The position numbers and the translations under genes were made by a program. Below are positions 21,573 through 63,606 of a DNA stretch of 64,000 bases, in pieces. Position 1 is the stretch's first letter. Every line of letters begins with the position of its first letter. Source of the DNA: a virus (taxonomy: Duplodnaviria > Caudoviricetes); IMG/VR virus record IMGVR_UViG_3300043434_000734, positions 96,001-160,000 of that record; one strand, given 5' to 3'. The notes below the pieces were generated by a model. That model made no database searches, was not told the origin of the DNA, and saw nothing but the letters and a program-made list of their open reading frames with translations.

Positions 21573-21764
21573 ATGATTATAATTGACTTATCTAAAGAAA
21601 AAAGCATAGAGAGTGCGTTAAGGACTTACAAACAGAAAGTTCAAAAAACTAAACAGATTCAAAAATTGAGGGAAAGAAAAGAATTCACCAAACCTTCAGT
21701 TATTAAAAGAAATGAAAAGTTGAAGGCAGTCTATGTACAACAAATAAAAAATGGTCTTAATTAA
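21573..21764 (+). CDS. rpsU: Ribosomal protein bS21
   Basis: IESALRTYKQKV.KT.....LRERKEFTKPSVIKR (F.KPS..R signature), 63 aa. Confidence 0.92.
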   Translation: MIIIDLSKEKSIESALRTYKQKVQKTKQIQKLRERKEFTKPSVIKRNEKLKAVYVQQIKNGLN

Positions 21765-33966: not shown

Positions 33967-34005
33967 ATACTTTACTTTTTGTTAAAAATATATATATTTA
34001 TATTC

Positions 34006-34108
34006 TCAGAGGTTCTCTTTGTCGATTACCTTTTCGTTTTTTTTCATAAGTAAGTGAAGTTGAATTCACCGAAAGACCTTAAAACCCCGACAAATCGTTG
34101 GGGTTTTT
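34006..34108 (+). ncRNA. Putative sRNA A
   Basis: TATTTATA at 33995-34002, internal hairpin, terminator 34082-34108; sequence blocks shared with 61656-61713. Confidence 0.5.
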
Positions 34109-47950: not shown

Positions 47951-48023
47951 GGGCCTGATGTCAACGGCAGACCATCTGATTTGCAATCAGAATGAATGGG
48001 TTCGATTCCCACAGCGTCCACCA
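47951..48023 (+). tRNA. tRNA-Ala(TGC), bulged acceptor stem, encoded CCA
   Basis: tctga-tttgcaa-tcaga; G3:U70. Confidence 0.8.
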
Positions 48024-48026
48024 AAT

Positions 48027-48099
48027 TGGAATGTAGCTCAATGGTGAGAGCATCCGCCTGATACGCGGAAGGTTATAAGTTCGAGTCTTATCATTCCAA
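48027..48099 (+). tRNA. tRNA-Ile(GAT)
   Basis: tccgc-ctgatac-gcgga; full cloverleaf. Confidence 0.95.
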
Positions 48100-48104
48100 C
48101 ATTG

Positions 48105-48177
48105 GGAACTTTGGTATAGCCGGTGCGTACGTTGGACTGAAAATCCGAAGGAACAAGTTCGATTCTTGTAGGTTCCA
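48105..48177 (+). tRNA. tRNA-Phe(GAA)
   Basis: ttgga-ctgaaaa-tccga. Confidence 0.9.
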
Positions 48178-48240
48178 CAAATAAAGTAAAATTTGAACGA
48201 TAAAGTTAATCACTTTATTAAACAGAAATAACTTTATTAT

Positions 48241-48314
48241 GACCTCTTAGCTCAGTTGGTTAGAGCACCTCACTTTTAATGAGGGAGTCCCGCGTTCGAG
48301 TCGCGGAGGGGTCA
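48241..48314 (+). tRNA. tRNA-Lys(TTT)
   Basis: cctca-cttttaa-tgagg. Confidence 0.95.
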
Positions 48315-48319
48315 CACAC

Positions 48320-48392
48320 ACGGGTATGGTGAAAATGGTTATCATTTTAGTCTCCAAAACTAAAGTTCCTGATTCGAGTTCAGGTATCCGTG
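48320..48392 (+). tRNA. tRNA-Trp(CCA)
   Basis: ttagt-ctccaaa-actaa. Confidence 0.92.
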
Positions 48393-48453
48393 CAAATGTT
48401 CGATTTTTTTAGTCCGTTTCGAACTTTCGTGATATTTATAAATAAAGAACATT

Positions 48454-48993
48454 ATGAAAGAAGAAATATTAAAATTAAGAAATGAAGGTAAAACATTTAA
48501 CCAAATAAAAGAAATAATAAAATGTTCTAAATCTACAATTTCATATTATTGTAGTGAAGGGCAAAAAGAAAAAACAAAAATTAGAACTAAAAAGAGGAGA
48601 GAAAACATTATAATTGATAAATTAGAAAGATTTAAATATAGAAAATCTAAATCGAATAAAGAACGAATTAGAAAATTCAATAAAAGAGATAATCAAATGG
48701 ATGGATTAGTTAACAAAAAAATAGAAATTACATTCACATTTGAAGATGTTATCAAGAAGTTTGGTTATAGTACTGTTTGTTATCTTTCCGGAGAAAAAAT
48801 AAATTTAAATGAAAACACATACCATTTTGACCATATTTTACCATCAAGTAGAGGTGGTGATAACACATTAGAAAATTTAGGTGTTACACACGAAATTGTA
48901 AATAAAATGAAAGGGGACTTAACACCAAAGGAACTTATTCTTTGGTGTGAAAAAATTTTGAAATATAATGGATATGATGTAAATAAAATTTAA
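48454..48993 (+). mobile_element. HNH homing endonuclease with N-terminal HTH
   Basis: CYLSG...HFDHILPSSRGG.NTLENL...VNKMK. Confidence 0.88.
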
Positions 48994-49039
48994 TATTATG
49001 AAAAAAGAATTCGATATGCATTAGTTAAACTAATCGCAT

Positions 49040-49243
49040 ATGACAAACAAAGAGTACAGAGTAAAGAGAATGAAACAATCACACGATTATTGTTTCATAT
49101 GTCAGAAGAGAAATGGAAGTTGGTATTATGATTGCTCCCCAACTTTTGTTCACGGAAGACACGGTAATGGGAAACCGATTGAATCTCATAAAAGAAGAGA
49201 GTATAGAAGTTGGAAGTACAACAGAAAAACTCAATGGAAGTAA
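49040..49243 (+). CDS. Small basic hypothetical protein
   Basis: 67 aa with CxxC. Confidence 0.55.
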   Translation: MTNKEYRVKRMKQSHDYCFICQKRNGSWYYDCSPTFVHGRHGNGKPIESHKRREYRSWKYNRKTQWK

Positions 49244-49272
49244 TGTTTACTATTAACAGTAAACAGTAAACG

Positions 49273-49344
49273 GGTCTCTTGGTGTAACGGATAGCACGAA
49301 ACACTACGGATGTTTTAGTAAGGGTTCAAATCCTTTAGAGACCT
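49273..49344 (+). tRNA. tRNA-Arg(ACG)
   Basis: aaaca-ctacgga-tgttt. Confidence 0.92.
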
Positions 49345-49405
49345 CAATGTTCACAAATTTTTAATGTTCACGTTCCGTGAACAAACAAAAAAAGTGAACA
49401 AAAAA

Positions 49406-49476
49406 GTCAGGTTGGCCGAGCGGCTAGGTGAAGGTCTGCAAAACCTTTAAGATAGGTTCGACTCCTATACTTGACT
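49406..49476 (+). tRNA. tRNA-Cys(GCA)
   Basis: aaggt-ctgcaaa-acctt; U73. Confidence 0.93.
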
Positions 49477-49481
49477 CTTAT

Positions 49482-49553
49482 GGTGTTTGAAGCTTTAAGG
49501 TGAAGCACGAGTTTGTGGAGCTCGGGAAGACGGTTCGATACCGTTCATACACC
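49482..49553 (+). tRNA. tRNA-His(GTG)
   Basis: cgagt-ttgtgga-gctcg; G-1:C73. Confidence 0.92.
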
Positions 49554-49558
49554 CATAT

Positions 49559-49629
49559 TGCGGGGAGGAAGGTTCCCGACCAGTCTCATAAGCTGTGTCT
49601 CCCGAGTTCGATTCTCGGCCCCGCAACCA
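49559..49629 (+). tRNA. Atypical tRNA-Met(CAT): initiator-like acceptor, short D-arm
   Basis: tgcgggg/ccccgca-acca; ctcataa loop. Confidence 0.7.
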
Positions 49630-49680
49630 AAAAGTTTTAAAAATAATTTGAAATAATTTCGGATATTCGTATTTATTTCT

Positions 49681-49688
49681 TACATTTG
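49681..49688 (+). promoter_or_regulatory. Bacteroidota-type -7 element TACATTTG
   Basis: Same tacatttgtaaaacaataa context as 56016. Confidence 0.75.
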
Positions 49689-49709
49689 TAAAACAATAAT
49701 GACAGAAAA

Positions 49710-49838
49710 ATGGCGAAAGCACCGAGAACATCGAAAAGAGTTGGTAAAGTGGCAAGTAAAGCATTAAGAAGTAAAAAAAGTAGCAAGACAACAAAAACTC
49801 TTGCGGGAAGTTCTTTGAGACAACGGAGAAAAAAGTAA
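49710..49838 (+). CDS. 42-aa highly basic peptide (MAKAPRTSKRVGKVASKALRS...)
   Basis: Below the ORF-track cutoff; promoter and A-rich start upstream. Confidence 0.65.
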   Translation: MAKAPRTSKRVGKVASKALRSKKSSKTTKTLAGSSLRQRRKK

Positions 49839-49843
49839 AATAA

Positions 49844-49915
49844 GCCTCTTAAGCATTGCAGGCGATGCGCCAGATTTGTAATCTGGATAACTCGGTTCGA
49901 TTCCGGGCGGAGGCT
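49844..49915 (+). tRNA. tRNA-Thr(TGT)
   Basis: ccaga-tttgtaa-tctgg. Confidence 0.9.
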
Positions 49916-49916
49916 C

Positions 49917-50375
49917 AACAAGTGACGACTGTGGTGTAACCCCACGGTATATAAATCCCAAAGAACTGTCTTGATTCGCGATATCAGAGCAGTGAGGGTA
50001 GAGTTTACTATAAGCGGGGAGTAATTAACCCAATGCGAAAATGTAACCACCAAGTGTAGAGATATATTTGGTTATGATGTACAGAAGGGTACAAAAAACT
50101 TGTTAATTTATTAATTTAGATTCTGATAACTTATAACTAAAGTTTTACTTAAACAAAGGTTATGGAGCAATTTGAGAAATGTTGTTATCACTAAGAATGT
50201 AAATTAATAAAGTTTGATTACGTTAGGTATGTAGTTTAAAAAGAACAATGTCCTAATAGATGAAGGTGTGAGTAATCACCTTACTTAACGTAATTTAAAT
50301 TTAAAACTAACTCAACGAGGACTTTGTTAACCAGAGCAAGACTTGGATGGTGCAACTTAAGGTGAGTTAGAATTT
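49917..50375 (+). ncRNA. Putative ~460-nt structured RNA of unknown class
   Basis: No + strand ORF; helices 50217-27/50284-94, 50263-68/50277-82, 50307-14/50363-70. Confidence 0.5.
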
Positions 50376-50376
50376 T

Positions 50377-50448
50377 GGTCCTGTAGTTAATCGGCTATAA
50401 TATTGCCCTGTCACGGCAAAGTGCCGGGTTCGATTCCCGGTGGGACCG
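50377..50448 (+). tRNA. tRNA-Asp(GTC)
   Basis: ttgcc-ctgtcac-ggcaa. Confidence 0.93.
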
Positions 50449-50672
50449 CAATGAGTAAGAGATACTCAATAGTCTTTAATCCAAGACTCATTTAACAATG
50501 GATGGTGGTTTGTAGTATCAACCTTAACGACTGCATATTGGGAACAAGGATTGTGGACCTACTCTCCCCCAAGTATTAGGTTGACGTTTTAACAGAGGGA
50601 TGCCTCGCAGGTTTTTGAGACAGACAAAAAACCGAAGTAACTACTCATCAGGAATCTCAAGGTGGGGAAAAT

Positions 50673-50760
50673 GGAGAGATGGTAGAGTTGGTCTATTGCA
50701 CCTGACTTGAAATCAGGAGTACTCGTGAGGGTACCGTGGGTTCGAATCCTACTCTCTCCG
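50673..50760 (+). tRNA. tRNA-Ser(TGA)
   Basis: cctga-cttgaaa-tcagg; long variable arm. Confidence 0.95.
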
Positions 50761-50876
50761 CTGTAGAGTTTGCCCGTGGTAACGGTCTGATAAGATACTT
50801 TCAGACTTCTCGCGTCAAAACCCAAAACACTGACCTACTGGTGCTTGGGCTAAATGTAGAAAAAAAACGGGATATT

Positions 50877-50964
50877 GGAGAGATGGCAGAGTTGGTCGAT
50901 TGCGTCAGACTTGAAATCTGAAGAACGGGAAACTGTTCCGTGGGTTCGAATCCTACTCTCTCCG
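50877..50964 (+). tRNA. tRNA-Ser(TGA), second copy
   Basis: tcaga-cttgaaa-tctga; long variable arm. Confidence 0.95.
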
Positions 50965-51063
50965 CGAACCAAAAGTCCAATGGGGAGGATCCACTACACG
51001 ATTAGCAATCGGAAGAGTAGATTAAGACTAAGGTTGCTTGACACTCCGGAAAGACGAGAAAAC

Positions 51064-51202
51064 AATCAAGTAGAGTGGTGGTACACTCACTATGTATGCA
51101 TCGTAAGATGGACGCCTTCTTCCCGCAGAGCACATAGATATGTCGTTTAGTGATATGGAAGAACACGGGAACGATTTGTAGGTTCGAATCCTATCTTGAT
51201 TG
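51064..51202 (+). ncRNA. Oversized tRNA-like RNA 1 (139 nt)
   Basis: Perfect 7-bp acceptor, D-arm and T-arm; 38-nt anticodon loop; 40-nt variable region. Confidence 0.7.
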
Positions 51203-51317
51203 CCTTTCCTTTCAGGGTAACGACCTGATAAATTTTGAGATACTAAAGTTGTAACACCAGGGACTCAACGAAAGAAAGTCGGAAACTAAACTTGACTGAT
51301 GGAAAGACATCAAATTT

Positions 51318-51447
51318 GGGAAGGTAGCAGAAATGGAAGATGCGTTATACGAAAGCTACGTATAAGACGCGATGACGGACACAAAAGTACAATGTGTTGA
51401 ACTAAAGATTACGCATCGTTATGGGTTCGATTCCCACTCCTGTCCCA
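51318..51447 (+). ncRNA. Oversized tRNA-like RNA 2 (130 nt)
   Basis: Bulged acceptor, D-arm, 7-bp anticodon-like stem, 55-nt variable domain, T-arm. Confidence 0.6.
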
Positions 51448-51648
51448 CAGGTCGTCTTTTTATATTGCTCAGTTTGTGGAGTTAACTTTAGAGACGTTAA
51501 ACTTAAAGTAATGAATCCAAGCCCTTTTAAAGTTGTGGTACAACTGGGTCCATTTCCTTACCGAAGGAGGTTTCCGGACCTAAAATAGAAGCCTCAAACG
51601 ACTGAAAAAAGTAGGGACATATGAGACTACCTAATCTCGTCCCGAAAT

Positions 51649-51720
51649 GGCCCTATCGACAAGCGGTTAAGTCACGTCCCTTTCACGGATGAGTCACGGG
51701 TTCGAATCCCGTTGGGGCTA
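51649..51720 (+). tRNA. tRNA-Glu(TTC)
   Basis: cgtcc-ctttcac-ggatg. Confidence 0.95.
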
Positions 51721-51735
51721 CTAAATGGTTTTACT

Positions 51736-51894
51736 ATGAAGAAGATTGTATTTTTATTGTTAGTAATGGTTACAATGAGTAGTTGTTTATATACAACATA
51801 TAGACGACCTTATTATCAACGATATCCGACTTATCAGAAACATTATCAACCAAATAAAAAATATAAACCTTACTTTAGACCAGGTCGTTGGTAA
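51736..51894 (+). CDS. Small Tyr/Arg/Pro-rich lipoprotein
   Basis: MKK-hydrophobic-MSSC lipobox. Confidence 0.75.
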   Translation: MKKIVFLLLVMVTMSSCLYTTYRRPYYQRYPTYQKHYQPNKKYKPYFRPGRW

Positions 51895-51948
51895 AAAATA
51901 TTTACTATTAAATTGAATTTTTATATATTTGTATATACTTATTAAGAA

Positions 51949-52053
51949 ATGAAGAACATAAATAACATATTGTCACTTAGTACTAGACCATTAAATAATG
52001 GTAACGGGTATGGTGTGCAACCCGTGAATTTATGTTCGGATACTCATATTTAG
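51949..52053 (+). CDS. Putative attenuator leader peptide 2 (MKNINNILSLSTRPLNNGNGYGVQPVNLCSDTHI)
   Basis: TATATTTG promoter at 51924; tgttcgg complementary to the terminator 5' arm. Confidence 0.55.
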   Translation: MKNINNILSLSTRPLNNGNGYGVQPVNLCSDTHI

Positions 52054-52075
52054 AAATTTAATTAATTAAAATATA

Positions 52076-52111
52076 GACCCGAACGACTTAAAAAATTGTT
52101 CGGGTTTTTTT
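52076..52111 (+). terminator. Terminator/attenuator before the second tRNA block
   Basis: gacccgaacga...ttgttcgggtt plus T-tract. Confidence 0.88.
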
Positions 52112-52142
52112 ATGTTATTTTTTTTCTTTATATTTGAAATGT

Positions 52143-52155
52143 AGTTCTTTGACAT
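52143..52155 (+). promoter_or_regulatory. boxA-like element AGTTCTTTGACAT
   Basis: Follows TATATTTG (52129-52136); similar copies at 49809, 56042, 59421. Confidence 0.6.
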
Positions 52156-52169
52156 TGTGGAAATGATTT

Positions 52170-52254
52170 GCTCGGGTGGTGTAATGGTAGCCACGAGGGA
52201 CTTAAAATCCCTTGGACAGAAACGTCCGTGCCGGTTCGAGTCCGGCCCCGAGTA
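52170..52254 (+). tRNA. tRNA-Leu(TAA)
   Basis: aggga-cttaaaa-tccct; long variable arm. Confidence 0.95.
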
Positions 52255-52369
52255 CAATGTAATGACTTAGAAATAAGTGACGGAACAGACGCTATGTATG
52301 AAATGGAAACGTTTGAAACATTTTAAAGATGTTGATTCGACACAAACCGTACAGACATTACATTAAATT

Positions 52370-52443
52370 GGTCCAATAGCTCAGCTGGATAGAGCAACTC
52401 TCTTCTAAAGAGTAGGTCTCAGGTTCGAATCCTGATTGGATCA
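52370..52443 (+). tRNA. tRNA-Arg(TCT)
   Basis: actct-cttctaa-agagt. Confidence 0.95.
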
Positions 52444-52588
52444 CGAAGATAATGGTTTTCACCACCTTACGGATGTCGACAATCCACGGTGGAATCTGAA
52501 AACAGCACCCTCTGCCGAGCGCTCGTAAAACTACGATTAAGCAGTTAAGATTGGAACGAGACGGGTATTCCAACATTATCTTTATTTT

Positions 52589-52661
52589 AGAGTAGTTGAC
52601 CAATCGGTAGGTCCCTTGCTTTGGGAGCAAGTGTGTGTAGGTTCGAGTCCTGTCTACTCTA
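52589..52661 (+). tRNA. tRNA-Pro(TGG)
   Basis: cttgc-tttggga-gcaag. Confidence 0.9.
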
Positions 52662-52668
52662 CAAAAAC

Positions 52669-52740
52669 GTTGGTATAGCTTAATGGTGAAGCATTCGGCT
52701 GTTAACCGAAAGACTGTAGGTTCGAGCCCTACTACCAACG
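52669..52740 (+). tRNA. tRNA-Asn(GTT)
   Basis: ttcgg-ctgttaa-ccgaa. Confidence 0.95.
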
Positions 52741-52747
52741 CAAAAAT

Positions 52748-52824
52748 ACCCGTATGGCGGAATTGGCATACGCGTCAGATTTAGGATCTGAATTTTGTAG
52801 GTTCGAGTCCTACTATGGGTACCA
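52748..52824 (+). tRNA. tRNA-Leu(TAG), short variable loop, encoded CCA
   Basis: tcaga-tttagga-tctga. Confidence 0.88.
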
Positions 52825-52870
52825 GGGATTGGTTGACACTAAACAACAAAACCAAAAGGAAGTGTAAAAT

Positions 52871-52954
52871 TGGAGGATGGGTGAGTGGCTAAAACCGGCA
52901 GACTGTAAATCTGCTCTCAGAACGGGTACGGGGGTTCGAATCCCTCTCCTCCAA
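52871..52954 (+). tRNA. tRNA-Tyr(GTA)
   Basis: gcaga-ctgtaaa-tctgc. Confidence 0.95.
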
Positions 52955-52968
52955 CAAAAACAAAAACT

Positions 52969-53616
52969 ATGGCAACATTAGAAACACAGTACAAGAATTA
53001 CTTAAAGTTGAATCCAGATTCAACATTCACATTTGAAGAATGGAAAGAAGATTTCGGTGGTAACGTGCTTAGACAAATGTCCGATATCTTAAAAGAAATC
53101 AAAACTCCTGAATATAAAGAAAGACGTATTAAGGAACACGAAGAACGTCTTAAAAATATTACAATGGATTATCAATTGGGACAATACGTTGGTGAGTACA
53201 TTGTAAGTCACAATCTTCCAACATTATCGACCGATATGATTCACTCTAATCGTGTGATTAAAGTGTCTGACGAAGAACAAACTGAATGTGAAAGATTGGA
53301 TGGTGAATATGTTAAATCATTGGAAGCCAATCAATGGAAAAATGGTGATAGTGAATTATTTGAAGCGTGGAAACAATATCGTAAGGTATTGGAAAAGAAA
53401 TATCTTCCACAAGTTTTAGAGTGTCATCTTAGTTTAATAAGAATTGATGACATAGTAAAATTTAAAGAAGGTTTATCTGATTGTCTTTGGAATTGTGATA
53501 TGTGTTCTTATGACATCAAAGAAGAAAACATCACAATTGAAAATGATTTACTTAACGGATTTACAATTATCAAATTTCAATATGATTCGAGTTGTAATGA
53601 TGAAATGAAAAAATAA
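52969..53616 (+). CDS. Hypothetical protein inside the tRNA array
   Basis: 215-aa ORF with A-rich start. Confidence 0.8.
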   Translation: MATLETQYKNYLKLNPDSTFTFEEWKEDFGGNVLRQMSDILKEIKTPEYKERRIKEHEERLKNITMDYQLGQYVGEYIVSHNLPTLSTDMIHSNRVIKVSDEEQTECERLDGEYVKSLEANQWKNGDSELFEAWKQYRKVLEKKYLPQVLECHLSLIRIDDIVKFKEGLSDCLWNCDMCSYDIKEENITIENDLLNGFTIIKFQYDSSCNDEMKK

Positions 53617-53667
53617 AATATCGTTTAAATATACGATATACGATTTTATCGTCTTAATAAACGATAT

Positions 53668-53741
53668 GGACTTGTAGCTCAGTAGGTTAGAGCAACTGAC
53701 TCATAATCAGTAGGTCCCTGGTTCGAGCCCAGGCTGGTCCA
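53668..53741 (+). tRNA. tRNA(CAT), elongator Met or Ile2 (lysidine)
   Basis: actga-ctcataa-tcagt. Confidence 0.9.
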
Positions 53742-53802
53742 CAAAGAGATTAGGATATTCCTTACCCGTCGCCTCGGGATGACATCGTCAGTCTCTTTAC
53801 AT

Positions 53803-53877
53803 AGAAGATTAGTTCAGTCGGTTCAGAGCATCTGTTTTACACACAGAAAGTCGGGGGTTCGAATCCCTCATCTTCTA
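53803..53877 (+). tRNA. tRNA-Val(TAC)
   Basis: tctgt-tttacac-acaga. Confidence 0.93.
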
Positions 53878-53946
53878 CAAAAAAATTGGGATTGGGTTAA
53901 TACTGATATGGAGGCAATTCCTGGTATTATCGCCGCCCAATTAAAT

Positions 53947-54022
53947 GCGAAAGTAGCTCAGTCGGTAGAGCACAACCTTGCCAAGGTTGGGGTCGCGAGT
54001 TCGAATCTCGTCTTTCGCTCCA
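53947..54022 (+). tRNA. tRNA-Gly(GCC), encoded CCA
   Basis: caacc-ttgccaa-ggttg. Confidence 0.96.
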
Positions 54023-54025
54023 TAT

Positions 54026-54098
54026 GCGAATATAGCTCAATTGGTAGAGCACTAGTTTTCCAAACTGGGGGTTGCAGGATCGTTCCCTGTTATTCGCT
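54026..54098 (+). tRNA. tRNA-Gly(TCC), atypical T-loop ATCGTTC
   Basis: ctagt-tttccaa-actgg. Confidence 0.88.
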
Positions 54099-54192
54099 CA
54101 ACTCAAGTACCCATACCGCTAACGATGGGCTAAGTAAGATACAAATTCGTACCACATTATTGTGGAGGCGGGAAGTAGAATGCTTGAGACAC

Positions 54193-54263
54193 TGTCCTTT
54201 GGTGTAACGGTAACACAATCGTTTTTGGTGCGATTATTTTAGGTTCGAATCCTAAAGGGACAA
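54193..54263 (+). tRNA. tRNA-Gln(TTG)
   Basis: atcgt-ttttggt-gcgat. Confidence 0.88.
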
Positions 54264-54278
54264 CTTAAATTTTTAAGT

Positions 54279-54509
54279 ATGAGTATTTTTGCAATTTACT
54301 ACGTAATATGTATTGCGTATTGTTTCTATCAATTAAATAAAAAATATAGAAACAGAGGTGTTGATTATGGAACATCACCAGAGTTAGATTCCATAATGGT
54401 TTTGGTTATGGCTTGGATTTTAGTGCCAATTGATGTGTCGATAACTTGGATACGAATGGTGAAAGAAGCAGAGGAGTCTAAAAGAAGACAAGAGAAACAA
54501 GTACTTTAA
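54279..54509 (+). CDS. Small 2-TM membrane protein
   Basis: Two hydrophobic segments. Confidence 0.7.
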   Translation: MSIFAIYYVICIAYCFYQLNKKYRNRGVDYGTSPELDSIMVLVMAWILVPIDVSITWIRMVKEAEESKRRQEKQVL

Positions 54510-54570
54510 CTAGTGGGCCACGGTGGTAGGCCAAAAGAAAAATAGATGTTTTTCATCCACCAAATTTTAT

Positions 54571-54656
54571 AGAGAGTTACCCAAGTTGGTGAAGGGGCCT
54601 GTTTGCTAAACAGGTAGGATGTTAAAGTCGCAAGGGTTCGAGCCCCTTACTCTCTA
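54571..54656 (+). tRNA. tRNA-Ser(GCT)
   Basis: cctgt-ttgctaa-acagg; variable arm. Confidence 0.9.
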
Positions 54657-54661
54657 CACAT

Positions 54662-56063: not shown

Positions 56064-56870
56064 GGCCGCCTATGGTCGATTAAAATAAACCACGAAAGTG
56101 GGATAAAGTGACGAGTCCTTGGTTGGGACAAGTTGCGGTTTCAGTAATGGAACTTGAGTAGGCAAGTGGAGTATCGTTGAACCTTAAGTACTGAGGGTAA
56201 CACTTTAGGGAAAGTGGTTTGATGACTGAGCAATCCGAGTTGTTTGGTTGAGGTGGGAACACCAATAAGAATAATCCATAGAGTTATTGTGAGAAATATG
56301 GTTATCCGACTATATGATTACGTGATTCAATATGATGGGAATCTTAAAACCGAAAGGTATGGTGAAGTACGAGTGGTGTCGTTATCATCCTTTATTAAAC
56401 TCTACCAAGGGTTTAGTTTTGAAGGGGTCCAAAAATATGGTAGCAGGGATGTTACAGAGAGTAGTTTAGTATCGAGTCGCTCAAAAGGTGGCTTGGCTAG
56501 GTGACGAACCACTACTTTCCAAATTCGGATAACTAAATTTTGTTAATTTTGGTTTAACAACTTAAAATCATACAAGAAAAAGTGTTCGTCAGTCGTTGTA
56601 GACAGGTGGCTACATAGTCGTGAGGGGTTCACGGCCACAAAGGGTCTCAAGCCCAATGTGATTTTTAAAAAAGTTCTCTAAACCCGCAAGGTTGAATCAG
56701 GGAGGCATCTTTGATGAGTAATGAGTATTAAAAGAGTATATAACGACTCAAGGATTGGTTAATCTAATTGACCGCCGCTGATTGGTACTACTCAAAAGGT
56801 AGTGGATATGGGAAGAATCAAATAATGTCCCTAAGTCAATCAAAAAATGGTGTAATCTCAGCCCTTTCTT
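56064..56870 (+). ncRNA. ~800-nt structured RNA, GOLLD-like candidate
   Basis: GC-enriched, no credible ORF, many hairpins, long-range 5'/3' pairing, next to tRNAs. Confidence 0.65.
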
Positions 56871-59435: not shown

Positions 59436-59836
59436 GGGGATGTCTGGTATTGATTTCAGGTATCAGGGATAAATGGCACGTAGTCAGAATTCATCTATGA
59501 CTTAAATCCACGGTGAAACATTTTAGACGGCAACGTTTACAACAATATGGAAATTGCAGGTTTACTTGCAACTTCTAAAGTAGCGGCCTAACCAAGTTAG
59601 CACTACACTCGGGTCGATGTACATATAACCTAGGAACAGAAGTACTTAAGGTGTGATACCACCTAAGAGTGTCAAAGGTCTCGTTCAGAGGGCTACCTTA
59701 AAGTGAACTCGACACAGTTATAGGGAACGATGTTAAAATAGGAACCTTTTATTTGTCTGTTGTGAACTAACAGAATAAACGTGTAGTCATTTATTGTTGA
59801 ACAGGAAAGACACGGGTTCGACTCCCGTCATCTCCA
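59436..59836 (+). ncRNA. ssrA: tmRNA; tag GNVYNNMEIAGLLATSKVAA* (59529-59591)
   Basis: ggggatg/catctcc-a acceptor with G3:U70, T-arm acggg-ttcgact-cccgt, tag ending VAA. Confidence 0.93.
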
Positions 59837-59839
59837 CAT

Positions 59840-59870
59840 AAAAAAACCCACCTAAATGGTGGGTTTTTTA
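59840..59870. terminator. Bidirectional terminator after tmRNA
   Basis: aaaaaacccacc-taaat-ggtgggtttttt. Confidence 0.88.
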
Positions 59871-61603
59871 TTTTCTATTAAACTCATTAGGTGTTCGGCT
59901 AATTCCATATGTCCCACTCTTCCAGTGTGACCGTCCATAACTCCACCATTGGTTTCATCTTTAATTAAACTATATTTCTTATAAGGTATCATATTGTCAA
60001 AACATTTCTTCTTGTGATTGACGGAACCAAAATGTTTAATATTAAATTCGTTGTGTGCGAACCTTTGTCTCTCAGGTGTTCCGTATTCAATGTTGACAAT
60101 TGCAATTTTTTTACCATTATCCGCCAATTTTTTCATCTCAACTAAATCAACGTCGGTTTTTAAATCAACAACATAATCACAATTATTGTTAATCACTTCT
60201 TTTAATTTATCATCGGTATCTCTCCAATTTGGTACCATTAAAGAATGTTTTAAATCAATACTTTCTTGTGACCATATGTTATTTGATACCACAATTTCAG
60301 GATCAACCCAAGTCCAATGGTATATTTTATTTTTGGGTAATAAATTTTTAATCACATCCATAAATTGACTTATTTCTGTCCACCAAATTGAATGAGTGTC
60401 TCTATTAATCGACAATTGTTGGGTACTCGATAAATCTACATCGTCGTTTTGTTTTGGATGTGGTGTGTTTGGTAAGATATCAACAAAGGAATTTACATTA
60501 TTCGCTAATTTAAATCTATTGATTGCTGTCCAACCAAATACCAAAATATCATTTGGTTTTATGGATTTGTAATTGTCCATAAATTTATCAAATATAGTGT
60601 AGTTAGAACATCCACCTATACCGTAGTTATGTAATTCAATGTCATATTTTTTAGAAATTATTTCACTGTAAGTTTCAGGTATGTCACCTAAAAAATCAAA
60701 ATAGTTTTTTGCCCAAACCGTACCAGCATCAAAGTGCGATTTAAATGTTTTTGTATGTGAATCACCAAACGCAAATAATCTCGGTTTTAATCTATCCTCA
60801 ATCATTTTAATTATTTTTTCACCATACATCTTATTACCAAAATAACCGGGATGTTTATCATCGGTAATACCGGGTACCTCATCTTTAATTGTTTGACCGT
60901 TGAATGTGCAGAACTGATTAACACAATTATATTCACCAAATTTTAAATTTTTTTTTGGGTCCAACAAAGAATAAAACTCATCGTATGGATTTTTCATACT
61001 CTCATCGTCAAACCAATAAAAGAATTCAATATTATTTTTTTCTAAAAAACTAAACAACCCAACAAGTTCACCTCTGTATCTATCAACATAGGCAACCGGA
61101 TTGTGATATTTTGATAAATATTCTTTAGTTTCGTCGGTAATTCTACCCTCAAAAAATTCACGTGAATACTTTATTTTATCTTTAGTGATAACTTCTTGTA
61201 TCTGTATTCCTGATAAATTACCAATATTTCTGTCATCGTCATATCTCACATTTGTAATTGCATAATCACCAATTTCATTATAATATTGGTCGACCCTATG
61301 TACTGGACTTGTAATCTCCAATAAGAATAAAGTTTTTCTTGCTTTCTCAATACCAATCTCTTCAATATGTTCATACGTTCTTCTAACTAGTCTTGGTGCT
61401 CCCGAACCCGAAAAAGCATCGTGTATTAATGAAACACCAAAATGGTTGGCGATGTATTTTGGATATGTGACATCTTTTTCATTATCCCATTCTATATTAT
61501 ATAATCTCTTATACTCATTTTTAATCATCCCTTGGTCTAAACCACCACCCGCAGTTAGTGAAGAACCATTAACATATATTCTTGTAAAGTTGTAATATTT
61601 CAT
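59852..61603 (-). CDS. Tandem SGNH-like domain protein, paralog of 33301-33966
   Basis: YVNGSSLT..DDKHP and FAFGDSHT..DGH. Confidence 0.65.
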   Translation of the reverse strand: MKYYNFTRIYVNGSSLTAGGGLDQGMIKNEYKRLYNIEWDNEKDVTYPKYIANHFGVSLIHDAFSGSGAPRLVRRTYEHIEEIGIEKARKTLFLLEITSPVHRVDQYYNEIGDYAITNVRYDDDRNIGNLSGIQIQEVITKDKIKYSREFFEGRITDETKEYLSKYHNPVAYVDRYRGELVGLFSFLEKNNIEFFYWFDDESMKNPYDEFYSLLDPKKNLKFGEYNCVNQFCTFNGQTIKDEVPGITDDKHPGYFGNKMYGEKIIKMIEDRLKPRLFAFGDSHTKTFKSHFDAGTVWAKNYFDFLGDIPETYSEIISKKYDIELHNYGIGGCSNYTIFDKFMDNYKSIKPNDILVFGWTAINRFKLANNVNSFVDILPNTPHPKQNDDVDLSSTQQLSINRDTHSIWWTEISQFMDVIKNLLPKNKIYHWTWVDPEIVVSNNIWSQESIDLKHSLMVPNWRDTDDKLKEVINNNCDYVVDLKTDVDLVEMKKLADNGKKIAIVNIEYGTPERQRFAHNEFNIKHFGSVNHKKKCFDNMIPYKKYSLIKDETNGGVMDGHTGRVGHMELAEHLMSLIENKKPTI

Positions 61604-61643: not shown

Positions 61644-61739
61644 TTAAACGAACAAAGAGGTCTTTAGGACCCCCTTGTCGAGATTAAGAACACCTCCTTT
61701 TCGTTTATATAAGTTATCGTTTAATGGCGACCAAACCAA
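61644..61739 (-). CDS. Possible 31-aa TTG-start leader peptide containing an extended SD
   Basis: (M)VWSPLNDNLYKRKGGVLNLDKGVLKTSLFV*; TATTTATA motif at 61751-61758. Confidence 0.35.
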   Translation of the reverse strand: MVWSPLNDNLYKRKGGVLNLDKGVLKTSLFV

Positions 61740-61762
61740 TTAAACTCTCTTATAAATATCGT

Positions 61763-62371
61763 TTATTTTTTAATTAATCGTTCTTTTAATATATTTTTTA
61801 CAGTTTCTTTTACTATAGATTCTTGTAATTTAACGTAACCTTGTTCTTTACCCAATTTTAAAACTTCATTGTAAATATCCTCAGTTATTTTAGTGTCATT
61901 CGGAGCCAAATACCTTATGTTTCTTAATTTACTTAATAATTCTGGTCCATAAATTTTACCATATTCGTCACCAAACAAAATAGTGTTCATTAAACCTATT
62001 TTGTTGTTTTTACAACCATAATCCCAATCATAGACTTTTTCATCACAATCTTTATAATTAAACGGTTTTGTTGGATTTTGTGCGGCTGGGTATCTTACTT
62101 TATAGTCAATAGTTGTTACAGATTTTTGTGGTTCGGTACTATTCGCTGATTGTTGAGTTGTTGACGATAATGTATCAGTTGTTAGATTCTTTTCATATGT
62201 TACATAATCACCCAAATCGATTTTATTATGAAACATATTCCAAAATTTCTTTCTACCCTCCGGACTTTGCATATTTGTTTTGAAATAATCATATGTAAAC
62301 TGTTTTCTTTGGTCAGAAAATTTTTCACCTAACTTATCCCATATTTTTTTTAATTCTAATTCGTTTACCAT
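61763..62371 (-). CDS. Hypothetical, probable virion protein
   Basis: C-terminal LQESIVKETVKNILKE motif. Confidence 0.7.
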   Translation of the reverse strand: MVNELELKKIWDKLGEKFSDQRKQFTYDYFKTNMQSPEGRKKFWNMFHNKIDLGDYVTYEKNLTTDTLSSTTQQSANSTEPQKSVTTIDYKVRYPAAQNPTKPFNYKDCDEKVYDWDYGCKNNKIGLMNTILFGDEYGKIYGPELLSKLRNIRYLAPNDTKITEDIYNEVLKLGKEQGYVKLQESIVKETVKNILKERLIKK

Positions 62372-62379
62372 AATTTCAT

Positions 62380-63606
62380 TTATTGTTTAAATGGGTCGAT
62401 AATTTGTTCTTTACCTGCACTATCTAATTGATTAGGTTTATTTGGTGATATTTTATTTTTTAATGTTTGAGTCAAACTATCAACTTTAGGTTGATATTCT
62501 TGGTTTAAAGAATCTAATTTAGGTGAGATTTTTTTTATTAAAGTGTCTGCTTTATTTTTGATATATTCTTTAGTCTTCTGTACATTAGTTTTATCATTTT
62601 TCTTATTTTTAATAAAAATCGCATATCGAACAATACTGTCTAATGTTAATCCTATGTAAATAAAAAGAGCATATGGGTTAAGTGACACTATCACCTTTCC
62701 AATATATTGTGCGGCCGCCTTAACCCCAAAAGTTGTGTAACCATCTGCACCCAATGGTCCCTTAAAAGGACCATCTTCACCAGATGCCCTTACAAGGTCC
62801 AACGCACCACTAATAGTCGTTGACCCAATAATAACCATACTGGTGTATTTTGAATCTTTTATATTACGAAGAAAATCAACAATTCCATCATTTAATCTGT
62901 TAATTATTTTTTGTGATAAATTTTTTTCTTCTCCTAATTTTTTCATATTATCCCTTACCTTGACTAACATTTCTTTCTGTTCTGTTGGTGATAGTCTGTC
63001 ATATGATTTTTTTAGATTATTTAGGTGAATTTCAAATTTAGGTGATATTTTTGCAATTTCTTTCTGTACTGCTGAACGTACTTCAAGAATAAATAATTTA
63101 CGGTCAGTTGGTCGAAACTTTTTTAAAAGTCCAAAATTTTTCATTTCATCACCAAAAAACGACCATAATTCATCAATATTCTGTGTAAGTGGAGTGACTC
63201 TTGGAGTTTTCGGTATTTTTAAATTTACCACGTCGTTAGCAAATGCGTTTTTAATACCTAATCTATTTGCAATGTTGGCTTTAGCTTGTTTTATTCCCTG
63301 TGTGGTTGTTAAATCTGATACTCTTAATATTAACTCAATTTCCCTTTCTTTATTTGCAATTATTGATTTAGCAATAATCTGTCTATATTCCTTAAACTCG
63401 ACCCTTAGTAACGCTTTTGATATTTCCTCGTCGGTGGCTCTAGTGAGTTGTCTAACTGACGGATTAATTTTTTGAACCGCACTTAAAAGTGCCCCGTTTG
63501 CCTCACCAACACCCTTTCCCGCAGCTCTTAATGCAAATTCAAAGGCGGCTAAGGGACCTTTTATTGCTTCGTTTAACACCTCACTGTGAATTTCCTCTAA
63601 TTTCAT
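62380..63606 (-). CDS. Hypothetical protein with hydrophobic segments
   Basis: 408 aa; N-terminal VLNEA. Confidence 0.75.
   Translation of the reverse strand: MKLEEIHSEVLNEAIKGPLAAFEFALRAAGKGVGEANGALLSAVQKINPSVRQLTRATDEEISKALLRVEFKEYRQIIAKSIIANKEREIELILRVSDLTTTQGIKQAKANIANRLGIKNAFANDVVNLKIPKTPRVTPLTQNIDELWSFFGDEMKNFGLLKKFRPTDRKLFILEVRSAVQKEIAKISPKFEIHLNNLKKSYDRLSPTEQKEMLVKVRDNMKKLGEEKNLSQKIINRLNDGIVDFLRNIKDSKYTSMVIIGSTTISGALDLVRASGEDGPFKGPLGADGYTTFGVKAAAQYIGKVIVSLNPYALFIYIGLTLDSIVRYAIFIKNKKNDKTNVQKTKEYIKNKADTLIKKISPKLDSLNQEYQPKVDSLTQTLKNKISPNKPNQLDSAGKEQIIDPFKQ

What the first reader, a model, noticed from the sequence alone, without database searches (positions are those of the whole stretch)
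61644..61758. 13-nt copy of the Bacteroidota 16S rRNA 3' tail in an intergenic RNA element (extended SD on the minus strand)
+ strand 61688-61700 reads GAACACCTCCTTT, matching the Bacteroidota 16S end GGAACACCUCCUUU (recalled; E. coli has GAUCACCUCCUUA). My hand estimate of a chance hit in this window at ~30% GC is ~1e-3. On the minus strand, downstream of a TATTTATA motif, it reads AAAGGAGGUGUUC, a maximal SD with no start codon at SD spacing, inside a possible 31-codon TTG uORF. Other genes here lack SDs. Known: Bacteroidota ribosomes hide the anti-SD with bS21/bS18/bS6. Inference: a sensor or sponge for ribosomes with a free anti-SD, or (if + strand) an anti-SD mimic that silences SD-bearing host mRNAs such as rpsU. 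Either would functionally link to phage bS21 and sRNA A.
Basis: partly seen in the sequence, partly recalled or inferred. Interest (0 to 1): 0.8.

Follow-up and report, generated by a model that had tools for sequence, protein, structure and literature searches.

The report
Phage small RNA mimicking rpsU ribosome-binding site
A large freshwater phage that carries its own ribosomal protein bS21 also encodes a conserved, roughly 100-nt non-coding RNA whose exposed sequence is the exact complement of the 3' tail of its host's 16S rRNA, so it probably acts as a decoy that grips host ribosomes.

Summary
The 13-mer is real and unique in the window. It lies in a discrete non-coding RNA gene on the minus strand (61645-61760), not in a leader or uORF.

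- **Family:** a covariance model finds 63 copies (42 distinct) in IMG/VR phage contigs, 17 more in metagenomes and 2 in Flavobacterium-type MAG bins. Flanks are unrelated, covariation is strong, and Rfam 15 has no match.
- **Host tail:** Flavobacterium 16S genes end in GGAACACCUCCUUUCU, so the RNA can pair with G1530-U1542.
- **Key result:** the RNA comes in three variants, GGAGGU-GUU, -AUU and -GAU. Each is the exact complement of one of the three 16S tail variants seen in sampled Bacteroidota genomes (AACACC, AAUACC, AUCACC). Host rpsU leaders track the tail likewise in the two classes read.
- **Context:** the RNA resembles the host rpsU extended-SD site but has no start codon. Phage genes, including phage bS21, lack SDs.
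- **Partner:** a second conserved sRNA (33995-34108) is complementary to both flanks of the SD.

Best reading (about 0.5): a decoy of the rpsU ribosome-binding site that binds the freed 16S tail and helps phage bS21 take over. Expression and binding are untested. Other readers of this scan flagged this same stretch.

The parts
61645..61760 (-). Whole conserved element: the box plus an RNA of about 100 nt (SD-RNA), new family, model R1
   Evidence: R1 scores 127 bits here. There are 63 full-length copies in IMG/VR loci (42 distinct), and the flanks are unrelated between contigs.
61752..61760 (-). Invariant box GATATTTAT, a putative phage promoter. The RNA is inferred to start at the conserved GAG 4-6 nt downstream.
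   Evidence: The box marks the sharp 5' limit of conservation. In the window, TATTTAT-N4-5-ATG precedes many long ORFs, and the same box precedes sRNA A. The promoter role is inferred, not shown.
61719..61745 (-). P1 hairpin with invariant UUGGUC hexaloop
   Evidence: 8 of 10 pairs show changes on both sides and 97.8% of cells are paired.
61714..61718 (-). Invariant GAUAA after P1, function unknown
   Evidence: Conserved in all 42 distinct sequences.
61692..61706 (-). Invariant AAACGAAAAGGAGGU: the SD core plus an upstream AAACGA that resembles host rpsU leaders
   Evidence: Alignment A4. Host leaders read ..UUAACGAGAGGAGGUGU...
61688..61700 (-). AAAGGAGGUGUUC, 13 nt complementary to 16S G1530-U1542 (E. 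coli-type numbering)
   Evidence: The predicted duplex with the tail is -22.6 kcal/mol, against about -22 for host rpsU leaders.
61680..61696 (-). Weak SD hairpin GAGGU / AUCUC with a variable 5-9 nt loop
   Evidence: Predicted by RNAalifold and in most single folds. Both arms are invariant, so covariation cannot test it. The SD is about 43% unpaired in the ensemble.
61649..61680 (-). P3 terminator-like hairpin (CGACAAGGGGGUC..GACCUCUUUGUUCG) followed by UUUA
   Evidence: Compensatory changes include a switch between UUCG and UAAAG loop types. Its last bases can alternatively pair with AAACGA as an outer helix.
33995..34108 (+). Partner RNA 'sRNA A': same box, hairpin, strong terminator. Blocks 34015-34025 and 34029-34039 are complementary to the SD-RNA at UCGACAAGG(GG) and AAACGAAAAGG.
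   Evidence: Found in 9 of 11, then 2 of 5 further, related records. The one variable inter-RNA pair is A-U (9 phages), G-U (2) or G-C (2).
21573..21764 (+). Phage bS21 gene with a host-type TATATTTG promoter and no SD
   Evidence: PF01165, 43 bits. Upstream sequence read directly.
59436..59839 (+). Phage tmRNA, convergent with the SD-RNA (1.8 kb away here)
   Evidence: tmRNA lies convergent 30 nt to 2.5 kb downstream in 13 of 16 sampled loci, and in 16 loci by a pattern search.

Best explanation
The element is a free-standing phage gene for a structured small RNA of about 100 nt, transcribed from the minus strand.

**Anatomy.** It has a 5' hairpin and a linker. Then comes an extended Shine-Dalgarno sequence that copies the ribosome-binding site of the host bS21 gene (rpsU) but has no start codon, followed directly by a stable hairpin.

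**Proposed mechanism.** In Bacteroidota the 16S 3' tail is normally buried by bS21, bS18 and bS6. Only ribosomes lacking bS21 can use an extended SD, and they use it to make more host bS21 (established by Jha 2021 and McNutt 2023). I propose that the phage RNA pairs with the freed tail (G1530-U1542) and traps those 30S subunits in a dead-end complex, or helps pull the tail out of its pocket. Host bS21 is then not replenished, while the SD-less phage bS21 mRNA is still translated and phage bS21 takes over the ribosomes. A second conserved phage sRNA, complementary to both flanks of the SD, probably switches the decoy on or off.

**Shown here:** the RNA family, its structure, its complementarity to natural tail variants, and its genomic company.

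**Inferred:** transcription, 30S binding and every downstream effect.
For: 1. It is a discrete conserved RNA gene: 63 + 17 + 2 copies with unrelated flanks.
2. Covariation is strong: 97.6% of cells paired, 11 pairs changed on both sides, and 0 of 500 shuffles reach the observed values. Many G-U pairs fix the strand.
3. Indels exclude a conserved ORF.
4. The host tail is confirmed in 11 of 11 Flavobacterium 16S genes.
5. Three RNA variants each complement one natural tail: 21 distinct RNAs of GUU type with AACACC, 20 of AUU type with AAUACC, and GAU-type RNAs with AUCACC. All 42 IMG/VR RNAs give 11 or more contiguous Watson-Crick pairs with one tail, and conservation stops where the single-stranded tail meets h45.
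6. Host rpsU leaders track the tail in the two classes read: GGAGGUGU in AACACC hosts and GGAGGUAUU in AAUACC hosts. They share ACGA(G/A)A upstream with the phage RNA.
7. Predicted duplex energy equals that of host rpsU leaders.
8. The phage is otherwise SD-free and phage bS21 has no SD.
9. bS21 is present in 9 of 10 held RNA-bearing phage records over 100 kb, in both near-complete genomes, and on the phage-like contig of MAG G003.
10. Literature: only an extended SD engages bS21-free ribosomes, and the authors speculated that phages disturb bS21 exchange (PMC9976891).
Against: - No transcript is shown. The runs laid were assembled contigs only. One metatranscriptome contig (depth 3) runs across the box from the upstream ORF, which fits read-through as well as DNA carry-over.
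- No individual phage could be tied to a host, so the match between RNA variants and tails is a correspondence, not a paired covariation. G/A is a common transition, and the tree allows anywhere from 1 to 6 switches.
- The invariant stretch extends 5' (AAACGA) beyond what the tail can pair with. That part instead pairs with sRNA A or with the RNA's own 3' end.
- Some members pair over only 11 nt (GAA and GUG types).
- The SD is about half sequestered in predicted folds.
- Co-occurrence with bS21 is within one phage clade, so it is not independent evidence.
Confidence: 0.5

Rival explanations
1. The RNA is a protein sponge or chaperone for bS21. Its small hairpin (GAGGU paired with AUCUC) would imitate an SD/anti-SD duplex and bind host or phage bS21 directly, as the P6 region of OLE RNA binds bS21 in Halalkalibacterium.
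For: GGAGGU and AUCUCG are both invariant while the loop between them varies in length and sequence, which is the pattern of a conserved hairpin. OLE P6 is a published SD-ASD mimic that binds bS21 (PMC12054373). The RNA occurs in bS21-encoding phages.
Against: - The helix is only 5 bp, and its second strand is AUCUC, not CCUCC.
- It cannot explain why positions 3' of GGAGGU, which lie in the loop, follow the host tail variants.
- Bacteroidia bS21 holds the single-stranded tail rather than an SD-ASD helix (PMC7797042).
Confidence: 0.12
2. The RNA is an ordinary base-pairing regulator whose main partner is another RNA. It would be one half of an sRNA/anti-sRNA (sponge) pair with sRNA A, or it would target mRNAs, and its likeness to an SD would be secondary.
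For: - Two colinear complementary blocks (11 nt, and 9 to 11 nt) link the two conserved RNAs.
- The seed is the best conserved part of sRNA A.
- The one variable inter-RNA pair stays compatible in all 13 phages read: A-U, G-U or G-C.
- The invariant AAACGA is explained by this pairing.
Against: - It does not explain the invariant AGGU, or the tail-matching variants outside the sRNA A footprint.
- The G-C state is seen only in two related phages.
- A scan of host rpsU loci with the sRNA A seed gave no signal above background.
- This reading is compatible with the decoy model rather than exclusive of it.
Confidence: 0.15
3. The element is only a cis element: the terminator or 3' UTR of the upstream gene, or the leader of the downstream 583-aa gene.
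For: It ends in a hairpin followed by U's, and one metatranscriptome contig bridges from the upstream ORF into it.
Against: Upstream and downstream genes differ between phages while the 115-nt block stays constant. In most phages the next gene is a convergent tmRNA. The downstream gene here has its own TATTTAT motifs. The covarying 5' hairpin and the invariant single-stranded motifs exceed what a terminator needs.
Confidence: 0.04
4. The element is a tiny coding gene: an SD-driven micro-ORF or a type I toxin mRNA, with sRNA A as its antitoxin.
For: It has a strong SD, and a trans antisense RNA covers the flanks of the SD, as in some type I toxin-antitoxin systems. An invariant AUC lies 5-9 nt after the SD.
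Against: No AUG, GUG or UUG lies at SD spacing in any of 52 distinct sequences. The frame after AUC runs through the covarying hairpin and gives unrelated peptides. The TTG uORF is broken by indels.
Confidence: 0.02

Closest known systems
Extended Shine-Dalgarno site of rpsU (bS21 autoregulation) in Flavobacteriales; Jha et al. 2021, McNutt et al. 2023
   Same: Both show 12-13 nt of complementarity to the 16S 3' tail in an organism that otherwise avoids SDs. Both have the same upstream ACGA(G/A)A context and the same tracking of tail variants.
   Different: The phage version has no start codon or ORF. It is encoded by a phage as a free RNA between two hairpins. It pairs two bases deeper (A1531, G1530) and not with C1543.
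P6 region of OLE RNA, an SD/anti-SD duplex mimic that binds bS21 (PMC12054373)
   Same: Both are non-coding RNAs that carry ribosome-binding-site-like sequence and are functionally tied to bS21.
   Different: OLE carries the anti-SD strand in a long Bacillota RNA and binds the protein. Here the RNA carries the SD strand, is about 100 nt long and phage-encoded, and its variants follow the rRNA tail.
Decoy RNAs that imitate a machine's substrate (6S RNA for RNA polymerase, CsrB for CsrA) and ribosome-bound tRNA fragments that displace mRNA in Haloferax
   Same: The logic is the same: an abundant small RNA imitates the natural ligand and titrates the machine (from my own knowledge).
   Different: The target would be the 16S anti-SD tail of a subset of 30S subunits, and the maker is a virus. 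No such case turned up in the paper library.
Phage-encoded bS21 of lake Bacteroidota phages (Chen et al. 2022, PMC9723584)
   Same: It is the same phage clade: bS21 antisense in the head module, genomes up to about 330 kb, freshwater.
   Different: In a term search of its main text, that paper has no occurrence of 'tmRNA', 'non-coding' or 'UTR'. The text was not read in full and the supplements were not searched.

Membership tests
rpsU-type extended SD translation initiation region | At least 11-13 nt of complementarity to the 16S 3' tail of the organism | tested here: met
   13 contiguous pairs with the Flavobacterium tail. All 42 IMG/VR variants give 11 or more pairs with one natural tail.
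rpsU-type extended SD translation initiation region | A start codon 5-10 nt downstream that opens the bS21 ORF | tested here: not met
   No AUG, GUG or UUG and no conserved ORF follows. Phage bS21 lies 40 kb away without an SD.
rpsU-type extended SD translation initiation region | Preferential engagement by bS21-deficient ribosomes | not testable with these tools
   This needs 30S binding or reporter assays.
Any Rfam 15 family | Score at or above the family's gathering threshold | tested here: not met
   No hit at gathering threshold. The best sub-threshold hit is Yfr11 at 21.7 bits against a threshold of 44.
Structured non-coding RNA gene | Conserved secondary structure supported by compensatory changes | tested here: met
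   11 of 20 pairs have changes on both sides, 97.6% of cells are paired, and slid controls give 44-64%.
Structured non-coding RNA gene | A discrete transcript with defined ends | tested here: inconclusive
   Only assembled contigs could be laid, so starts, ends and strand are unknown.
Type I toxin-antitoxin | A small conserved toxin ORF on the SD-bearing RNA | tested here: not met
   There is no start codon, and frames are not conserved.
OLE-P6-like SD/anti-SD duplex mimic | An intramolecular helix pairing an SD-like strand with a CCUCC-like strand | tested here: inconclusive
   A 5-bp GAGGU/AUCUC helix is predicted. Both arms are invariant, so there is no covariation test, and the second strand is not CCUCC.
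sRNA / anti-sRNA pair | Conserved intermolecular complementarity between two independently transcribed RNAs | tested here: met
   Blocks of 11 nt and 9-11 nt are kept in all 13 phages where both RNAs were read. The single variable pair is A-U, G-U or G-C. Transcription was not tested.

The most novel reading that the evidence does not exclude
This would be the first virus-encoded RNA aimed at the anti-Shine-Dalgarno tail of host 16S rRNA. The start-codon-less copy of the host rpsU ribosome-binding site would capture bS21-free 30S subunits or strip the tail from its protein pocket. It co-evolves with host tail variants. Together with phage bS21 and an antagonist sRNA, it would form a three-part ribosome takeover module.
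Probability: 0.4. Interest if true: 0.92.

Novelty: new variant of a known kind. Interest (0 to 1): 0.85.

Why it matters
How phage-encoded bS21 displaces host bS21 is an open question, and so is why Bacteroidota keep a hidden anti-SD at all.

This RNA gives a concrete, testable handle. A short synthetic RNA, existing F. johnsoniae bS21 mutant strains and rpsU reporters would be enough to test whether a phage disarms the host's bS21 feedback loop by RNA mimicry.

If true, it adds a ribosome-directed decoy RNA to the ways phages take over cells. It also shows that variation in the 16S tail shapes phage-host specificity. Whatever its function, it is a new, widespread RNA family of lake and marine phages, with about 80 copies found here.

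Tried and rejected
- **16S 5'-end likeness.** AGAGTTTAAT resembles the start of 16S (AGAGTTTGAT), but it is lost in divergent family members, so I treat it as chance.
- **Other 16S contacts.** No other part of 16S is complementary to the conserved loops.
- **sRNA A targeting host rpsU mRNA.** A sliding duplex scan over 21 host loci gave no signal above the A/U-rich background.
- **Expression.** The look-up of sequencing runs gave only small shares. Read laying showed contigs of many relatives piling up on the conserved block, with no ends or strand. It gives no evidence for or against transcription.
- **Known phages.** A megablast of the locus against GenBank phages found nothing.
- **Neighbouring proteins.** Pfam and PHROGs found nothing for the three neighbouring proteins.
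- **bS21 contigs without the RNA.** Two gave 31-bit model hits that proved to be an unrelated terminator. These contigs are 25-65% complete, so absence means nothing.
- **Box frequency.** GATATTTATA is not over-represented in the window as a 10-mer. The signal is positional: TATTTAT sits 4-5 nt before ATG.
- **tmRNA adjacency.** A strict pattern search under-counted it. Rfam corrected the count.

Full report
**1. Observation.**
The plus strand at 61688-61700 reads GAACACCTCCTTT. This is the only match in the window even when one mismatch is allowed. The genes around it are all on the minus strand: 62380-63606, 61763-62371 and 59852-61603. None of the three has a Pfam or PHROG match. On the minus strand the 13-mer is AAAGGAGGUGUUC.

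The window is a large phage. It has 24 tRNAs, a GOLLD RNA, a tmRNA and a bS21 gene (PF01165). It fits the bS21 phage clade of freshwater Bacteroidota described by Chen et al. 2022 (PMC9723584).

**2. It is a gene for a structured RNA, not a leader.**
An exact 24-mer and then a 19-mer from the region recovered many IMG/VR contigs. About 115 nt are conserved in them while both flanks are unrelated.

A covariance model (R1) found 63 full-length copies, 42 of them distinct, in IMG/VR loci. It found 17 more in metagenome contigs, some marine. It also found 2 in MAG bins labelled Flavobacterium and Flavobacteriaceae. One of those two lies on a 248-kb contig that also holds a phage-type bS21 and sRNA A, so it is a binned phage.

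Rfam 15 has no family for it.

Structure support:
- 97.6% of cells are paired.
- 11 of 20 pairs have changes on both sides.
- 0 of 500 shuffles reach the observed values, and slid controls give 44-64% paired.
- Frequent G-U pairs would be C-A on the plus strand. This fixes the RNA strand as minus, in agreement with the fold z-scores of -3.8 (minus) and -1.9 (plus).

Indels in the linker and loop destroy the 31-codon TTG frame, and no start codon follows the SD in any member.

**3. Anatomy (minus strand).**
- An invariant box, [G/C]ATATTTAT.
- 3-6 variable nucleotides, then a conserved GAG.
- Hairpin P1 with an invariant UUGGUC loop.
- An invariant GAUAA, then a variable linker.
- An invariant AAACGAAAAGGAGGU.
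- Three tail-tracking bases, then a variable loop of a few nucleotides.
- An invariant AUCUCG.
- A covarying terminator-like hairpin, then U(U)CGUUU.

Folds predict a weak SD hairpin (GAGGU/AUCUC). They also predict an outer helix, AAACGA/UCGUUU, as an alternative to the base of the last hairpin. The SD is about 43% unpaired in the ensemble.

In the window, TATTTAT lies 4-5 nt before the ATG of many long ORFs. The same box precedes sRNA A. I therefore read the box as a phage promoter, but this is an inference.

**4. The 16S tail.**
All 11 complete 16S 3' ends read in the genus of the Flavobacterium MAG are GGAACACCUCCUUUCU. The RNA can therefore pair with G1530-U1542. That is the whole single-stranded tail from the foot of h45, except the last two bases.

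A sample of 401 genomes of the phylum gave three tail variants among the 97 genomes that matched:
- AACACC, about 35 genomes. All 25 of these that also appear in the order sample of the Flavobacterium MAG have this tail.
- AUCACC, about 55 genomes.
- AAUACC, 6 genomes. This tail was seen in 1 of 401 sampled genomes of that order.

The RNA family shows the matching variants:
- GGAGGU-GUU: 21 distinct RNAs, 11-13 Watson-Crick pairs with AACACC.
- GGAGGU-AUU: 20 distinct RNAs, 12-15 pairs with AAUACC.
- GGAGGU-GAU, found in metagenomes: 12 pairs plus one G-U with AUCACC.

Some members are imperfect and pair over 11 nt only (GAA and GUG types).

Host rpsU leaders follow their own tail in the two classes read (the leaders of AUCACC hosts were not read):
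- ..ACGAGAGGAGGUGUC..AUG in 21 Flavobacterium genomes.
- ..ACGAGAGGAGGUAUUU..AUG in five AAUACC genomes.

The phage RNA shares with these leaders the ACGA(G/A)A stretch upstream of the SD. Predicted duplex energies with the tail are equal, about -22 kcal/mol.

I could not link any phage to its host, so this is a correspondence between two sets of variants. On the short RNA tree the G/A switch needs between 1 and 6 changes.

**5. Company.**
- The phage avoids SDs: 2 of 64 ORFs have even a 4-mer core.
- Phage bS21 has a host-type TATATTTG promoter and no SD.
- bS21 is present in 9 of 10 held RNA-bearing phage records over 100 kb. It is also in both near-complete genomes and on the phage-like contig of the Flavobacteriaceae MAG. 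This is clade linkage, not independent evidence.
- A tmRNA gene lies convergent just downstream in most loci, and GOLLD and the tRNA array lie beyond it.

**6. A partner RNA.**
It has the same box, a covarying hairpin and a strong terminator.

Its best conserved stretch, CUCUUUGUCGAU-UACCUUUUCGUUU, is complementary to two parts of the SD-RNA: AAACGAAAAGG and UCGACAAAGGG. These are the two flanks of the SD hairpin. The only variable pair in that duplex is A-U in nine phages, G-U in two and G-C in two related ones. Pairing would cover the AAAGG part of the SD and open the last hairpin, so sRNA A looks like an antagonist or a switch. The locus looks like an inverted partial copy of the SD-RNA gene.

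**7. Mechanism.**
*Established background.* Bacteroidia ribosomes hide the tail in a bS21/bS18/bS6 pocket. Only bS21-free ribosomes use an extended SD, and in many Flavobacteriales rpsU is the one gene that has one. The result is autoregulation of bS21. Those authors also speculated that phages encoding bS21 perturb its exchange (PMC7797042, PMC9976891).

*Inference.* A start-codon-less copy of the rpsU site, followed by a stable hairpin, would hold bS21-free 30S subunits in a dead-end complex. Alternatively it would help dislodge the tail, since it pairs across A1534, the base that bS21 Tyr54 stacks on. Either way it would block replenishment of host bS21 while the SD-less phage bS21 mRNA is unaffected. 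I put about 0.5 on this family of mechanisms.

The rivals are direct bS21 binding by an SD/ASD-like hairpin, as in OLE P6 (PMC12054373), a purely RNA-RNA role with sRNA A, a cis element, and a micro-ORF. They are weighed in their own sections.

**8. Novelty.**
Keyword searches of the paper library found no description of such an RNA. I file it as a new variant of a known kind: the rpsU-type extended SD, recast as a free phage RNA. The more novel reading, the first viral RNA aimed at the host anti-SD tail, is not excluded. Other first-stage readers of this scan flagged this same stretch independently.

Noticed in passing
window 33995-34108 (+): 'sRNA A' is a real conserved RNA gene with an ATATTTATA box, a covarying hairpin (34054-34069) and a strong intrinsic terminator (34081-34108). 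It sits about 12 kb from bS21 in every relative read.
   Followed up: partly
window, e.g. 8774, 14250, 56977 (+); 63617, 46436, 39231, 26161, 24332 (-): TATTTAT lies exactly 4-5 nt before the ATG of many long ORFs, including head-module genes. This suggests a phage promoter that gives leaderless or near-leaderless mRNAs, or else a phage-specific initiation signal.
   Followed up: partly
Bacteroidota genomes G059, G221, G269, G301, G345, G441, G493 (loci L259-L263): A minority 16S tail variant, GGAAUACCUCCUUUCU (U1533), exists. In the five of these genomes whose rpsU leaders were read (L259-L263), the leaders carry the compensating GGAGGUAUU. The taxa could not be named with these tools.
   Followed up: partly
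G003:C1 (loci L125, L130, L173): Contig 1 (248 kb) of a Flavobacteriaceae MAG is a bS21 jumbo phage binned with a bacterial genome. That genome's own rpsU (L128) has no SD.
   Followed up: partly
window 59436-59839 (+), 56457-56864 (+), 47951-54657 (+): The window holds an RNA gene island: a 24-tRNA array, a GOLLD RNA, and a tmRNA with tag peptide GNVYNNMEIAGLLATSKVAA. The order GOLLD, tmRNA, SD-RNA recurs in relatives.
   Followed up: partly
L035:1942-2158: A group I intron (66 bits) lies next to GOLLD and the SD-RNA in one related contig.
   Followed up: no
window 51564-51571 (+): AAGGAGGT sits inside the tRNA array (ccgAAGGAGGTttccggacc), just upstream of tRNA-Glu. No ORF is obvious, so it may be part of another structured RNA.
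   Followed up: no
L268, L270, L273, L274, L276 and others (metagenome contigs): A divergent subclade of the RNA (P1 stem GAGGUCAGUAC.., variants GAA and GAU) occurs in marine metagenomes, including a TARA scaffold. The family is therefore not limited to lakes.
   Followed up: partly
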